A DNA stretch of 64,000 nt, taken from NCBI RefSeq assembly GCF_009914755.1, contig NC_060941.1. One strand, given 5' to 3'. The notes under the pieces are model-generated. The model searched no databases, was not told where the DNA came from, and saw nothing but the letters and a program-made list of their open reading frames with translations. Below, in pieces: positions 17,048 through 22,600 of the stretch. Position 1 is the stretch's first letter. Every line of letters begins with the position of its first letter. The position numbers were made by a program, and so were the translations under genes. The stretch comes from the human T2T-CHM13v2.0 reference genome, Homo sapiens.

Positions 17048-18240
17048 TAATTGGAAAGCAGATTTCAGTTCAGGATAAGGAAACTTTAAAATTCGGAGTT
17101 GTATGAAAATGGACAAGGTCATCTCAGTGAGTTCCCCTCATGTAGGAAATTACACAGGACCAAGGGTACTAAAGGGGAGGTAACTGAGGTTGGTTGTAAG
17201 GTATCCTTCTAACTCTGAGATTAAATGATTGTCTTAGTGCCTCATTTTCTCATCATTGAAAAACAGGAACATACCCATAATAACAGAAAAGCTGTTACTA
17301 AATTGAAAAATGGCACATCATTAGTAATAGACAAATGTGTCCGTCTTTTTCAAGCAAACCAAACAAATTGTTCCCTAAAATTCTTAATTAAAAATTAAAA
17401 TTAGTTTACATGTTACACTCATTGTATTTTCAAGCTTTGAGCAATTATCAGCCAGGCCCAAATTTAGCAATTGCAGGCAAGGGCAAAGTTAAGAAACTGT
17501 AAGTAGCAATCCATAGGTTAGATTCTAATGGTGAAGAAAATCCCTTCAGTCCCTGATCATTGTTTATCTCGGGATTTAAACAGTAACTCTAATTGTATTC
17601 TTTGAACACAAATTCCTGCCCCATCCCCCACCCCATCCCTTGGTTAATTAGCTGCATAGGTCTTATAACAAATGCCCACTCAGAAGCACTGGGAGGTAGA
17701 AATGCTGTTGATAATTAAACACCACAATAGCACAGAGCCTGTTTCAGGAGCCACTGAGTGGTCTTGCCCCTGCTGGACTGCTTACCACACAGTCACAGAC
17801 CCTCCATTGTGCTGGTATGGCTGCTCAGAGGGATAGCTGCTTGGCTGGAGAAGGAACCAACTGCAATGAGAGAAAAGACCAAACCTTGCAGAGATCAGGA
17901 GTATGGCCTCCAGGGAAAAGTGTCCTGTGGGTGGAAGTGAAAGGGGAATGAATCCAAGAAAAAGAGAAGTGGATGGGCAGGAATGATAAAACAGACATAG
18001 CCTTTCTATTTTCTAAATCAAACCAACCAGCCAAACTGAGTTCACCAATTTCATACCAAATAGATAACAATCAGGAAATTGTAATATATAAATAATAGGT
18101 TGATTTGTATTCTATTTGGTTTAGAGAAAATCCACCGAGTTCTTTAAGGTTTAGATGAAGATCATGAATAAGTCATCCCATCTCCCTGGGTCTCAATTTC
18201 TTCATCTTTAAAATAAGGAAGTTGAAAATAGCCCCATTCT

Positions 18241-19629
18241 GCCATCAGATCCAGAGGCTAGTAGTTACACTTCTGTAACACCAGATGTTAGTGACAATGA
18301 GCCTGATCACTATAAATATTCTGACACCACTGACTGATCCAGAGAATGAACCTTTTGATGAAGATCAGCATACACAAATTACAAAAGTCTGAAATTTTTT
18401 TATCAAGAGGTATAAAACACCATGAAAACAAACTTGAATAAACTGAAAATGAACTTTTTTTTTTTTTTTTTTTTTTTTTTTTTTTTTTTTTGAGAAGGAG
18501 TCTCGCTCCGTCTCCCAGGCTGGAGTGCAGTGGTGCGATCTTGGCTCACTGCAACCTCCGCCTCCCAGGTTCAAGCAATTCTCCTGCCTCAGCCTCCCGT
18601 GTAGCTGGGACTACAGGTGCCGGTCACCACGCAAGGCTAATTTTTGTATTTTTAGTAGAGACAGGGTTTCACCATATTGGTCAGGCTGGTCTCAAACTCC
18701 CAACCTCAGGTGATCCACCTGCCTCAGCCTCCCAAAGTGTTGGGATTACAGGTGTGAGCCACCGCGCCCGGCTGAAAATGGACCTTTTTTTTTAATGGCA
18801 ATAGGACATTGTGTCAGATTACCAGTTATAGCAACAATTCTCTTTTCCTGACCAATCTTGTTTTACCCTATACATCCACAGGGTTTTGACACTTGTTGTC
18901 CAGTTGAAAAAAGGTTGTGTAGCTGTGTCATGTATATACCTTGTTGTGTCATAAGGACATTTAAAATTCAATTAGGATTAATAAAGGTGGCACTTTCCCA
19001 TTTTATTCCAGTTTCATAAAAAGTGGAGACAGACTGAGGTGTATACATAAGAATTTTTTCCTTTTGTGTTCTGTCGCCAACTGAAGTGGCTAAAGAGCTT
19101 TGTGATATACTGGTTCACATCCTACCCCTTTGCACTTGTGGCAACAGATAAGTTTGCAGTTGGCTAAGAGAAGTTCCTGAAGGGTTTTGCTGCATTCTAA
19201 TGCATGTATTCGGGTTAGGGGAATGGAAGGAATGCTCAGAAAGGAAATACATTTATTCTAGACTCTGGACCATACACCATCTCCAGCTATTTACGCACAC
19301 CTTTCTTTAGCATGCTACAGTTATTAATCTGGACATTCAAGGAATTGGCCACTGTCACTGCTTGTTGTTTGCACATTTTTTTTAAAGCACATTGGTGCTA
19401 GAGAAGGCAGCTAAAGGAAGTGAATCTGTATTGGGGTACAGGAATGAACCTTCTGCAACATCTTAAGATCCACAAATGAAGGGATATAAAAATAATGTCA
19501 TAGATAAGAAGCACAGCATCAATGATTTCACCATATAAATGTGGAGGCTATCAACAAAGAATGGGCTTGAAACATTATAAAAATTGAAAATGATTTATTA
19601 AATATGATTTCTCAATTGTAAAAAAAAAA
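18241..19629 (+). pseudogene. 5'-truncated processed PTEN pseudogene (last-exon codons ~354-403 + ~0.9 kb 3'UTR + poly(A)), interrupted by an Alu
   Basis: From 18242 reads [31 protein letters not shown]; the shifted frame reads DPENEPFDEDQHTQITKV* (stop 18390-18392), i.e. the PTEN C-tail. Downstream sequence matches the recalled PTEN 3'UTR. ATTAAA 19597-19602, A-tail 19620-19629, TSD aaaatagccccattc (18225-18239) / aaaatgcccccattc (19626-19640). Confidence 0.93.
18455..18772 (-). mobile_element. AluS inserted into the PTEN retrocopy 3'UTR
   Basis: Full dimer with a pure ~37-nt T tract; flanking duplication tgaaaatg(a/g)ac at 18444 and 18773. Confidence 0.95.
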
Positions 19630-22600
19630 TGCCCCCATTCCAGGGTGGCAAAAATAGAAATTGGATTCCCAGAACAATTTTCAAGCTTTCAAAAAGGCTA
19701 ACTATCACACCATTACTCAAGATAAACTACACAGTCTAATATAATTGTCATATTTACTTGCTTCTGCTTAAAATATATTAACCCAGTTTGTTAGGTTGAT
19801 TATCTCATTCTGAACAGATGCTTCTATTGATGGTTATATAGGTCATTAATAATAGGGAGAAACATGATCACTTTATAAGTCAGCTGGTTTAGTAGACAAA
19901 AAAAATCTTTCAAAAGAGGGTGTTTTATTAAGCTATTAAAAAAATCCACTGGAAAAAATAAATAAAAGTTTGCTTGCCGAAATGGTTGGAAACCAGTGGC
20001 TCAGTCAGTGCTTCTCTGACTTGTCCATGCAATTACTTTTAACAACAGATGCAAATGATAGTCTCAAGGACACCTGTGTTCTTAACCTGGAAAAAAGGGA
20101 TAGAGTTTTACAAAGTTTCCCTTTTTTCAAAATCTTCAATTTTTGAAAACACTTTCCATTCTTCTCCATAATAGACCTATTTAATTTCTAAATAATATGC
20201 TTAATCAAAATCTGCATGTAAAATTTGATGCTCCAAGAAGACACATTCATTCATATTGTGTTTTTAGAGGTGATCATTGCACCCCCTACTTCACCCACCG
20301 TCACCACTATATTACATTAGAGTTTAGATATCCCAGTTTGAGGTGCGCTGGGATGTAAATAATCTTGCAGAGCTCACCCAGCTATAAAATTCTGTCTTTA
20401 GTCTCTGAAGAGGCAAAATGCATTATCTTGAAGAGGTGGAATTCCTTTATCATTATAACTCAAATTGCATCTAAAGCCTAGAAGGAAAGGGAAAATGCAG
20501 AAACAAAATGTGTGGTTCTAGGGAAAGCAGAAAAATTGTCAGAAGGAGCCAAGCATAGTTCAAGAGAAGCTGTCCATCTGAAATGCCACCTGGAATTCAC
20601 ACCAGTAATAACTGTTGTGGATATAAAAATTAATAGGGGGGATTTCATAGTATTAGAAAAATTTATTTTTATAAATCATGTGTCTGTCACCCAAGTGTTG
20701 ACGCATGCATGCAATTCAAACATCAGGCATACAATAAAAAGCTCACTGGATAACTTAACAAGGACAATTCCCCCATTTTCTCTATAATTTGGAGTGGAAG
20801 AAGGAGGGGGGAGTGGGTAGAGAGTGCAGTTACTGGGTCAATTAATCAACCTGAAAACTGTGACACAAACTCTGACGCCTAACCTATGTCTAAAAATACA
20901 CAAATGTATACGAATTTGTTTTAAACTGTCAATGCCTATATTTAGGACCTTCCCAGCAAGGCTATAATGAGACTGTGTTTGAGGGCTTCAGTCATAGCAG
21001 ACTCTACCATTAATCTGAAGTTAGTTAAATTAACAGCATTTAGTACTGACTTGTCAATCTCACTGCTCCAGGAAATTGCACCTTGAGGCTACTAATATTG
21101 CCAATTTTTCCACTGGAGTGTGCGCCCGCGTGTGTGTATGTGTTTTTTTTTTTCTCCAGAACCTCTGCGTTCATACCCCATCATTGCTTCCCTACGTCCA
21201 CAGCACTTATATTATCATTTATTCTGGCCTCCTTTAGCCTTCCCCAGGGATTCTGCATAGTGTAGCTGCTCAGTGAAAGAGTTTTTTAGCTTTATATTTA
21301 TTTGTTTATTTTTCTGTCATGGCTCATGACTGAGGCTTTTAAAAAAAAGTGTGACAGTATTTAGAGTACATGATTGACTGCTACAGCAACATTCATTAAC
21401 CATGACAAATCTGCAGCAAAACACAGTCCTGAGTGTTCTAAACAGCAACTTTAAAAAGAAAGAAGAAAGAAAGAAAAAGAAAAAAGACTCAACTAATTTT
21501 TCATTGACCTCGTCTGTAAATAAATTTAGACCGATGGTGCACAGAGGCAATAATAAATTAGTATTCATTTCCTGTAATTAATGCAAACATGCCCATGAAC
21601 ACAGAGAATATGAATATATAACCACCTAATTTCCATTTCAAAATACACCTAACAAATTTTCACTTGAGTTATCTTCACAATATTTTCCCCTTTAATTAGA
21701 AGAATGAAATAGTTGGATTTCTTTCCCACCCACCAGGGAGAAATATTGTTTTGGTCACAGGGAGTGTCAAACACATTTCAGCAACAGATCTGTAGGACTT
21801 TAGTCTGGTTTACTTGACTGTTCTGTGATCCCCTACCATATTCCCATGCTGAGGCTCTTTTATCACTTAACCAGGTGGGGCTCTGAAGTGACCAAGTGAC
21901 CATCGTGGCAGGCCCTCATATGCATAACAGCCATGAGGAGATCATAAGAGGCAGCCTCACTGCTCAGCACAAGAAAGGGAGACATACATTCCTTCCCATT
22001 CATTGACATGAACGCAAGAGCAGGATGGCTAAACAATCTGATGTAAATCAAATGAAGACTATCACATATTGGGTAAAATAGAAATAGCAAGCTCTACAAC
22101 CTCTCTCAGCAAGAGGGGCTTATATAACTTATCCTCTTGAGCATAGGTATCTCTGGAGATCATTCCTACCATTACACCACAATCAAAGATCAATTTCTGA
22201 TCACATTCAAGTCAGCCAGTCATCAGAACTCACTAGCTCAACTGTGGCAGCAGTAGCGGAACTCTTTGTAAGCAATAAATACATTGATTAACAATAATAA
22301 AATTATGCCTCTAAGATGTACGTACAAAAATGTCTATAAGCTGGGAAGAATGTGTTAAAGGCAGAAAATTTGAATCAGGTTCTACCAAAAGCAAAACAAA
22401 ACTTCATCAGAATGCAACTTGCCTCATGGATAACATTTCCTAGGGTCTTCCTGGCCATACGGAGTTTTGCCCCTACATGTTTGTCCTTCTAGAGGTCATG
22501 GCAACAAATATGTACTCTCTGGATGAGAAGTGGTCCTCCTGGGTACTTGATGGTGGAATTCTAATTAGCTAAGTTAAGCAGCTAAGTGAGGTATGTGTTA

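What the first reader, a model, noticed from the sequence alone, without database searches (positions are those of the whole stretch)
18225..19640. A PTEN retrocopy hidden in sense inside an ANKFN1 intron
Seen: codons for PTEN residues ~354-403 (T366/S370, the S380-S385 cluster and the TKV PDZ motif), then ~0.9 kb of PTEN-like 3'UTR, ATTAAA, a poly(A) tail and a 15-bp TSD (13/15 identical). These are the marks of a 5'-truncated L1-mediated insertion. The ORF track misses it. Established: the well-known PTEN pseudogene PTENP1 carries the full CDS and lies on another chromosome, so this is a second locus. Inference: being in sense, it is transcribed with every ANKFN1 pre-mRNA. I cannot tell whether it is already annotated.
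Basis: partly seen in the sequence, partly recalled or inferred. Interest (0 to 1): 0.85.

Follow-up and report, generated by a model that had tools for sequence, protein, structure and literature searches.

The report
Old truncated PTEN retrocopy in ANKFN1
This is a real but ordinary dead fragment of the PTEN messenger RNA, copied back into an ANKFN1 intron tens of millions of years ago, and a 2009 database paper had already noted it.

Summary
Window 18241-19621 (+) is collinear with the last exon of PTEN on chr10 (96% over the UTR part, 93% over the coding tail) and with PTENP1 on chr9. These are the only three such loci in the assembly. The copy starts 32 nt inside exon 9, at codon P354. 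It has a 2-bp deletion at codon S385 that makes a premature TGA. It carries about 904 nt of PTEN 3'UTR and ends 19 nt after an ATTAAA that PTEN also has. A short A-run follows, and a 15-nt target-site duplication (13/15) flanks the whole insert. An Alu absent from PTEN and PTENP1 splits the copy at 18455-18772. Homology does not pass the duplications, so this is retroposition and not a segmental duplication. The three-way counts are 37 changes unique to chr17, 11 to PTENP1 and 6 to PTEN. The chr17 copy is therefore older than PTENP1 and independent of it, roughly 25-40 My old on recalled rates. Nothing suggests constraint or a transcript of its own. [quoted passage not shown] It is real, ordinary, already noted and of low interest.

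The parts
18225..18239 (+). Left target-site duplication, AAAATAGCCCCATTC
   Evidence: family D13; 13/15 was reached by 2 of 8843 control position pairs and 0 of 20000 shuffles. It ends one base before the homology starts.
18241..18392 (+). PTEN coding remnant: last base of codon 353, codons 354-403 and the stop. There is a 2-bp deletion within 18333-18336 (codon S385) that gives an in-frame TGA at 18335-18337. The original TGA is at 18390-18392. No start codon.
   Evidence: Residue numbering comes from PDB 7jvx_A. 93% identity to chr10.
18393..18454 (+). First part of the PTEN 3'UTR. Its last 12 nt (18443-18454) are the left duplication of the Alu insertion.
   Evidence: family D5.
18455..18772 (-). 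Alu inserted later into the retrocopy. Its A-tail reads as a 38-nt T run on the + strand. It has its own flanking duplication, CTGAAAATG(A/G)AC.
   Evidence: It is absent from chr10 and chr9 at this point. It matches 10 other Alu copies in the window at 75-85%. The AluS-type call rests on recalled diagnostic motifs and was not tested against a library.
18773..19621 (+). Second part of the PTEN 3'UTR, up to the cleavage point. Total UTR is about 904 nt in PTEN coordinates.
   Evidence: 96% to chr10 and 95% to chr9.
19597..19602 (+). Poly(A) signal hexamer ATTAAA inherited from PTEN, 19 nt before the end of homology
   Evidence: present in chr17 and chr10; chr9 has GTTAAA.
19620..19629 (+). A-run, the remnant of the poly(A) tail. 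The first 2 As may be PTEN's own and the last 4 belong to the duplication.
19626..19640 (+). Right target-site duplication, AAAATGCCCCCATTC
   Evidence: family D13.

Best explanation
This is a 5'-truncated processed pseudogene fragment of PTEN.

A PTEN mRNA that had been cleaved and polyadenylated at a proximal ATTAAA site, about 0.9 kb into its 3'UTR, was reverse-transcribed by the L1 machinery at a nick in what is now an ANKFN1 intron. Reverse transcription stopped 32 nt inside exon 9, so only codons 354-403 and the proximal UTR were copied. The insert was flanked by a 15-nt target-site duplication. An Alu later landed inside it.

Since then it has drifted as neutral intronic DNA. It has a 2-bp frameshift and about 3.5% unique substitutions. 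It is older than PTENP1 and arose independently of it. It has no function of its own and is carried as a passenger in ANKFN1 pre-mRNA.

Shown here: the anatomy, the copy number, and the order of the Alu relative to the retrocopy. Inferred: the L1 mechanism, the date, neutrality, and transcription only as intron.
For: - **Copy number.** The assembly holds exactly three loci for both halves of the copy: chr17 (self), chr10 at 96% and 93%, and chr9 at 95% and 94%.
- **Parent gene.** The chr10 exon is PTEN 343-403 by PDB 7jvx_A.
- **Boundaries.** Homology starts at 18241 and ends at 19621 for both relatives.
- **End at a poly(A) site.** The copy stops 19 nt after an ATTAAA shared with PTEN. chr10 and chr9 go on matching each other beyond that point, and chr17 switches to an A-run.
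- **Target-site duplication.** 13/15 exactly at both junctions. Controls reached this in 2 of 8843 position pairs and 0 of 20000 shuffles.
- **Nick site.** The site reads TTG|AAAAT on the top strand. This is close to the L1 endonuclease preference, which I recall and did not test.
- **No inverted or extra PTEN pieces.** None within 740-780 nt on either side, on either strand, against loci that include the whole PTENP1 coding region.
- **Dead as a gene.** No start codon, a 2-bp deletion, and an early TGA.
- **Older than PTENP1.** Of 1047 ungapped columns, 37 differences are unique to chr17, 11 to PTENP1 and 6 to PTEN. The 37-versus-11 binomial p is 2.2e-4. A copy made from a PTENP1 transcript would be expected to have a branch equal to PTENP1's.
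- **No sign of constraint.** Coding part 8 changes in 154 columns (4 nonsynonymous and 4 synonymous by my reading). UTR 29 changes in about 893 columns.
Against: - Intron loss, the usual proof of an RNA intermediate, cannot be shown because the whole copy lies within one exon.
- The A-tail is very short, with only 4-8 untemplated As.
- I could not confirm that the 0.9-kb ATTAAA is a used PTEN poly(A) site today. In the passages I saw of PMC6212768, seven human sites were validated and the dominant ones lie at 300 nt and 3.3 kb. The positions are in a figure and supplements that I could not see (closed).
- The date rests on recalled neutral rates and a recalled Alu subfamily age. No primate genome was available to test it.
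- All four seed matches that PTEN has in this segment survive in the copy. At 3.5% divergence, about 44% of such copies would keep all of roughly 23 seed bases by chance (my arithmetic), so this neither supports nor excludes constraint.
- PTENP1's short branch could reflect constraint or gene conversion rather than youth. That would weaken the 'older than PTENP1' step, though not the independence of the insertion event.
Confidence: 0.9

Rival explanations
1. The copy is a functional microRNA decoy (competing endogenous RNA) for PTEN, like PTENP1. It would be delivered either within ANKFN1 pre-mRNA or intron RNA, or from a transcript of its own.
For: The copy is in sense to ANKFN1 (hub table). 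It keeps 4 of 4 seed matches that PTEN has in this segment: miR-17 family, miR-19, miR-130/301 and miR-29. It also has one extra miR-19 match made by CpG decay (the seed motifs are recalled).
Against: - RefSeq lists no transcript or exon here (hub table).
- Intron RNA is nuclear and short-lived (general knowledge).
- ANKFN1/Nmf9 expression is described as restricted, starting with inner ear (start of the abstract of PMC4488434 in the listing; mouse).
- The copy has 3.4 times more unique changes than PTENP1 and shows no sign of constraint.
- Keeping the seeds is expected by chance in about 44% of cases.
- The miR-21, miR-26 and miR-214 motifs were found in none of the three copies in this segment.
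- An Alu splits the UTR.
Confidence: 0.03
2. The copy was made from a PTENP1 transcript, not from PTEN mRNA. It would then be a secondary retrocopy of the pseudogene.
For: Six positions are shared by chr17 and PTENP1 against PTEN, and two T-run length differences are shared as well. PTENP1 is known to be transcribed (PMC2808873 passage).
Against: - Two of the six shared positions are CpGs kept only in PTEN, where parallel decay is expected. All six are transitions.
- T-run lengths are prone to recurrent change.
- A daughter of PTENP1 should have a branch equal to PTENP1's, but the counts are 37 versus 11 (p = 2.2e-4).
- PTENP1 now has GTTAAA at the signal the copy used. That change could, however, be later than the copying.
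Confidence: 0.05
3. The copy is a DNA-level duplication (segmental duplication or transduction) of part of the PTEN or PTENP1 locus, not retroposition.
For: The copy lies within a single exon, so no missing intron proves an RNA intermediate.
Against: - Homology ends exactly at a cleavage site 19 nt after ATTAAA and is followed by an A-run, while chr10 and chr9 continue alike.
- At the 5' end the homology starts inside the exon with no intron 8 sequence.
- A 15-nt duplication sits at both junctions.
- There is no flank homology.
Confidence: 0.01

Closest known systems
The 'additional hit' of Network of Cancer Genes (Nucleic Acids Res 2010, PMC2808873; passage seen)
   Same: It is the same object. 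[quoted passage not shown] The assembly holds only three loci with this sequence, so the printed hit can only be this one.
   Different: The paper found it by protein-to-genome matching and calls it 'a short region of identity'. In the passage I saw it does not mention the 0.9 kb of UTR, the poly(A) site, the duplication, the Alu, the mechanism or the age.
PTENP1 (processed PTEN pseudogene, chr9; L003)
   Same: It has the same parent gene and the same L1-type mechanism. It shares the proximal 3'UTR, with the same miR-17, miR-19, miR-130 and miR-29 seed matches in the common segment.
   Different: - PTENP1 spans the exon 8/9 junction and further upstream, and continues past the 0.9-kb site. The chr17 copy has only codons 354-403 and 0.9 kb of UTR.
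- PTENP1 is 98.3% identical to PTEN in the shared columns, against 95.8% for chr17.
- PTENP1 has its own transcripts and reported decoy activity (passages of PMC5148010 and PMC6278865). The chr17 copy has no annotated transcript.
Generic 5'-truncated processed pseudogene fragments made from 3'UTR-proximal parts of mRNAs
   Same: It ends at a poly(A) site, has an A-tail remnant and a target-site duplication, is truncated at the 5' end, has decayed neutrally, and was later hit by an Alu.
   Different: Nothing in kind. The only points of note are the parent gene's medical importance and the use of a proximal rather than the main poly(A) site.

Membership tests
L1-mediated processed pseudogene (retrocopy) | Collinear homology to the mature mRNA of a parent gene located elsewhere | tested here: met
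   1055 aligned columns, 95.8% identity to chr10 PTEN exon 9. The parent is on contig C10 and the copy on C17.
L1-mediated processed pseudogene (retrocopy) | Absence of the parent's introns | tested here: inconclusive
   the copy begins 32 nt inside exon 9 (acceptor at L002:1263, homology from L002:1295), so it crosses no exon junction. PTENP1 in the same alignment does show the spliced exon 8/9 junction.
L1-mediated processed pseudogene (retrocopy) | 3' end at a poly(A) site of the parent mRNA, with the signal hexamer 10-30 nt upstream, followed by an A-tail | tested here: met
   ATTAAA at 19597-19602 is shared with PTEN. Homology ends at 19621 and an A-run follows at 19620-29. The tail is short. 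Present-day use of this site in PTEN was not confirmed.
L1-mediated processed pseudogene (retrocopy) | Target-site duplication directly flanking the insert | tested here: met
   family D13 (15 nt, 13/15); reached by 2 of 8843 control position pairs and 0 of 20000 shuffles.
L1-mediated processed pseudogene (retrocopy) | Insertion at an L1 endonuclease-type site (bottom strand TTTT/AA; consensus recalled) | tested here: inconclusive
   the top strand reads TTG|AAAAT at the start of the duplication, so the bottom strand reads ATTTT/CAA. This is a near match read by eye, with no statistical test.
L1-mediated processed pseudogene (retrocopy) | No homology to the parent locus beyond the duplications | tested here: met
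   window 17500-20400 against L002 and L003 gave only the two collinear blocks, plus the Alu matching Alus in L002.
Decoy (ceRNA) pseudogene of the PTENP1 type | A stable transcript of its own that reaches the cytoplasm | not testable with these tools
   No expression data were available. The hub table (RefSeq) lists no transcript or exon at 18225-19640.
Decoy (ceRNA) pseudogene of the PTENP1 type | Shares microRNA seed matches with the parent UTR | tested here: met
   4 of 4 PTEN seed matches in the segment are kept. Of the 17 recalled motifs, 12, including miR-21, miR-26 and miR-214, occur in none of the three copies in this segment.
Decoy (ceRNA) pseudogene of the PTENP1 type | Sequence conserved beyond the neutral expectation | tested here: not met
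   37 unique changes against 11 in PTENP1 over the same columns. The coding and UTR parts are equally decayed. No cross-species test was possible.

The most novel reading that the evidence does not exclude
In ANKFN1-expressing neurons and hair cells, the sense-oriented PTEN UTR fragment is released from the intron or cut at its inherited ATTAAA. It would then persist as an RNA carrying miR-17, miR-19 (two matches), miR-29 and miR-130 sites and would locally buffer PTEN.

A more modest version is that the copy serves as a neutral outgroup. Read that way, it shows that PTENP1 changes about as slowly as the PTEN UTR itself (11 versus 6 changes, p = 0.33), meaning PTENP1 is constrained or gene-converted.
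Probability: 0.04. Interest if true: 0.5.

Novelty: already known. Interest (0 to 1): 0.12.

Why it matters
It matters little for biology. It is one of thousands of dead retrocopy fragments, and its existence has been in print since 2009.

It has three minor uses:

1. **Read mapping.** It is a third human locus that is 93-96% identical to PTEN exon 9 and the proximal UTR over about 1 kb. Mapping of short reads, and probe or primer design for PTEN and PTENP1, should take it into account.
2. **A fossil of poly(A) site use.** It records that a PTEN mRNA ending about 0.9 kb into the UTR was present in the germ line when the copy was made.
3. **An outgroup.** It gives an independent, apparently neutral outgroup for asking whether PTENP1 evolves under constraint.

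Tried and rejected
- **Segmental duplication.** Rejected on the junctions.
- **Twin-priming or 5' inversion.** No inverted PTEN piece was found in window 17500-20400 against a locus that contains the whole PTENP1 coding region.
- **Origin from PTENP1.** Disfavoured by branch lengths, but not excluded without primate sequences.
- **Dating the Alu.** I compared it with a majority consensus of 11 Alu copies from the window. It differed at 23 of 269 'non-CpG' positions. That consensus had only 14 CpGs and mixes subfamilies, so the figure is not usable. It shows only that the Alu is no younger-looking than its neighbours, whose values ranged from 0.041 to 0.140.
- **Confirming the 0.9-kb PTEN poly(A) site in print.** The passages I saw of PMC6212768 and PMC9114392 give no position near 0.9 kb.
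- **Looking for a second human PTEN pseudogene in print.**
  - Tang 2016 (PMC5148010; abstract, sections 5 and 9, passages) counts one for human, but accepted only loci labelled as pseudogenes in GenBank.
  - The passages seen of PMC6278865, PMC8071448 and PMC7290577 mention only PTENP1.
  - The whole-word search for 'PTENP2' found 5 papers. Of these, 3 were opened and use the word for promoter primers or amplicons, or as a slip for an antisense isoform. A fourth is Tang 2016; I did not look up its PTENp2 mentions, and its Table 1 gives human a single copy. PMC5998602 was not opened.
- **Cross-species presence or absence.** No primate genome is held by the tools.
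Full report
**What is there**

Reading window 18000-19900 shows the PTEN C-terminal codons in sense. Window 18212-18337 translates to ...[31 protein letters not shown]. One frame over, 18339-18392 gives PENEPFDEDQHTQITKV*.

A search of the window's own assembly with the 848-nt UTR-like part found three places. These were the window itself on C17, C10:88849426-88850276 at 96%, and C9:33693053-33693898 (minus strand) at 95%. The 214-nt coding-tail part found the same three loci at 100%, 93% and 94%.

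The C10 exon translates to [61 protein letters not shown]. It matches PDB 7jvx chain A, a PTEN entry, at residues 343-381. C10 is therefore PTEN and the residue numbering is fixed. C9 shows the spliced exon 8/exon 9 junction. It is the processed pseudogene PTENP1, as the NCG and Tang papers describe it.

**Anatomy**

BLAST of window 17500-20400 against the C10 and C9 loci gave two collinear blocks, 18241-18466 and 18772-19621. Nothing else matched except the Alu against Alus in the chr10 locus.

- *5' end.* The alignment shows that PTEN's exon 9 acceptor lies at L002:1263 and that homology starts at L002:1295. The copy is therefore truncated 32 nt inside exon 9, at the last base of codon 353.
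- *Coding changes.* Within the coding remnant there are 8 substitutions. By my reading they include N356D, S362Y and R378K. A 2-bp deletion at codon S385 creates a TGA at 18335-18337. The original TGA is at 18390-18392.
- *The Alu.* Between 18455 and 18772 lies an Alu on the minus strand with a 38-nt tail. It has its own duplication, CTGAAAATG(A/G)AC (family D5), and is absent from PTEN and PTENP1. By recalled diagnostic motifs it is of the AluS type; no repeat library was available to test this.
- *3' end.* The copy, PTEN and PTENP1 agree up to ...TCTCAATTGTAA. After that, PTEN and PTENP1 continue together (CGACTTCTCCATC...) while the copy has an A-run. The hexamer ATTAAA at 19597-19602 is shared with PTEN and lies 19 nt before the end of homology. 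In PTEN coordinates the copied UTR is about 904 nt (L002:1449-2352).
- *Target-site duplication.* The 15-nt repeat is AAAATAGCCCCATTC at 18225-18239 and AAAATGCCCCCATTC at 19626-19640 (family D13). One search also listed many chance repeats of similar size in this AT-rich stretch, so I tested the placement. A 13/15 match sited at both junctions was reached by 2 of 8843 control position pairs in the window and by 0 of 20000 shuffles of the flanks.

**Mechanism**

Five features are the marks of L1-type, target-primed reverse transcription of an mRNA:

- an end at a parental poly(A) site;
- an A-run;
- a flanking duplication;
- 5' truncation;
- no flank homology.

They exclude a DNA-level duplication. 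One usual mark, loss of introns, cannot be assessed because the copy lies within one exon. The nick site reads TTG|AAAAT, a near match to the recalled L1 endonuclease preference.

The source mRNA used a proximal poly(A) site. In the passages I saw of PMC6212768, seven human PTEN sites were validated, with dominant ones at 300 nt and 3.3 kb. The list of positions is in a figure and in supplements that I could not open. Whether the 0.9-kb site is used today is therefore open.

**Relation to PTENP1, and age**

Over 1055 aligned columns, 1047 of them ungapped, the three-way counts are as follows (both one search's tally and the alignment give 992 identical columns).

| Pattern | Columns |
|---|---|
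| Identical in all three | 992 |
| Unique to chr17 | 37 |
| Unique to PTENP1 | 11 |
| Unique to PTEN | 6 |
| All three differ | 1 |

Pairwise differences are chr17-PTEN 44/1049, chr17-PTENP1 49/1047 and PTEN-PTENP1 18/1050.

If the copy had been made from a PTENP1 transcript, its branch and PTENP1's should be equal. The observed 37 versus 11 gives p = 2.2e-4. The six positions where chr17 and PTENP1 agree against PTEN are all transitions, and two are CpGs that only PTEN kept. They are best read as later changes in PTEN or parallel CpG decay. I conclude that the copy had an independent origin, earlier than PTENP1. The caveat is that constraint or gene conversion on PTENP1 would also shorten PTENP1's branch.

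The chr17 branch is 3.5% per site, with an approximate Poisson range of 2.5-4.7%. I recall a figure of roughly 3% neutral change on the human lineage since the split from Old World monkeys, and I recall the AluS burst at around 30-40 My. On those figures the insertion dates to about 25-40 My. This is an inference, and no primate genome was available to test it.

**Function**

The copy lies between ANKFN1 coding exons 4014-4224 and 22840-23034, on the gene's strand (hub table). It is therefore expected to be part of those pre-mRNAs that span this intron. This was not tested.

It cannot encode protein. It shows no sign of constraint: 8 changes in 154 coding columns, 29 in about 893 UTR columns, and a split by an Alu.

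I scanned 17 recalled 7-nt seed-match motifs across the three copies.

- The four matches that PTEN has in this segment (miR-17 family, miR-19, miR-130/301 and miR-29) are all kept in chr17 and in PTENP1.
- chr17 gained a second miR-19 match by CpG decay.
- The other 12 motifs, including miR-21, miR-26 and miR-214, occur in none of the three copies in this segment.
- At 3.5% divergence, keeping about 23 seed bases intact is expected about 44% of the time (my arithmetic). The retention therefore says nothing about function.

The inherited ATTAAA came without PTEN's downstream sequence, because that sequence is not part of the mRNA. It is therefore probably a weak signal in its new place; this is an inference. 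I put the decoy reading at about 3%.

**Prior knowledge**

[quoted passage not shown] The assembly has only three such loci, so that hit is this locus. The paper does not describe it as a retrocopy in the passage I saw.

Tang et al. 2016 (PMC5148010) list one PTEN pseudogene for human, but they accepted only loci labelled as pseudogenes in GenBank. The passages I saw of three retrocopy and pseudogene papers mention only PTENP1. 'PTENP2' is not used for this locus in the 3 papers I opened for the term, out of 5 that hold it. A fourth is Tang 2016, whose PTENp2 mentions I did not look up; its Table 1 gives human one copy. One paper was not opened. RefSeq has no row for the copy in the hub table. 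I could not consult GENCODE or the retrocopy databases.

**Verdict**

But the feature is an ordinary, decayed, 5'-truncated processed pseudogene fragment, and its existence is already in print.

- the exact anatomy;
- the use of a proximal poly(A) site;
- the later Alu insertion;
- evidence that the copy is older than PTENP1 and independent of it.

Noticed in passing
L003 (chr9 PTENP1), alignment A2 column 828; window 19597: PTENP1 has GTTAAA where PTEN and the chr17 copy have the ATTAAA signal. The proximal signal is therefore lost in PTENP1 today.
   Followed up: no
Alignments A1 and A2 (window 18241-19621 against L002 and L003): With the chr17 copy as outgroup, PTENP1-specific changes (11) are not significantly more numerous than PTEN-specific ones (6; p = 0.33). 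PTENP1's branch is only about 1% per site, yet Tang 2016 reports PTEN pseudogenes in both Old World monkeys and hominoids. PTENP1 may be young, constrained or gene-converted in this segment.
   Followed up: partly
window 19370-19376: CpG decay (TTTGCGC to TTTGCAC) gave the chr17 copy a second miR-19-type seed match that neither PTEN nor PTENP1 has (seed motif recalled).
   Followed up: partly
window 18455-18772: The Alu inside the retrocopy has an unusually long, pure 38-nt tail. It is also missing from the hub's list of the longest masked stretches, although shorter stretches are listed there.
   Followed up: no
L002:237-1027 (chr10, PTEN intron 8): Two Alu-like stretches lie in PTEN intron 8 just upstream of exon 9. 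They match the window's Alu at 74-81% and explain the extra BLAST hits.
   Followed up: no
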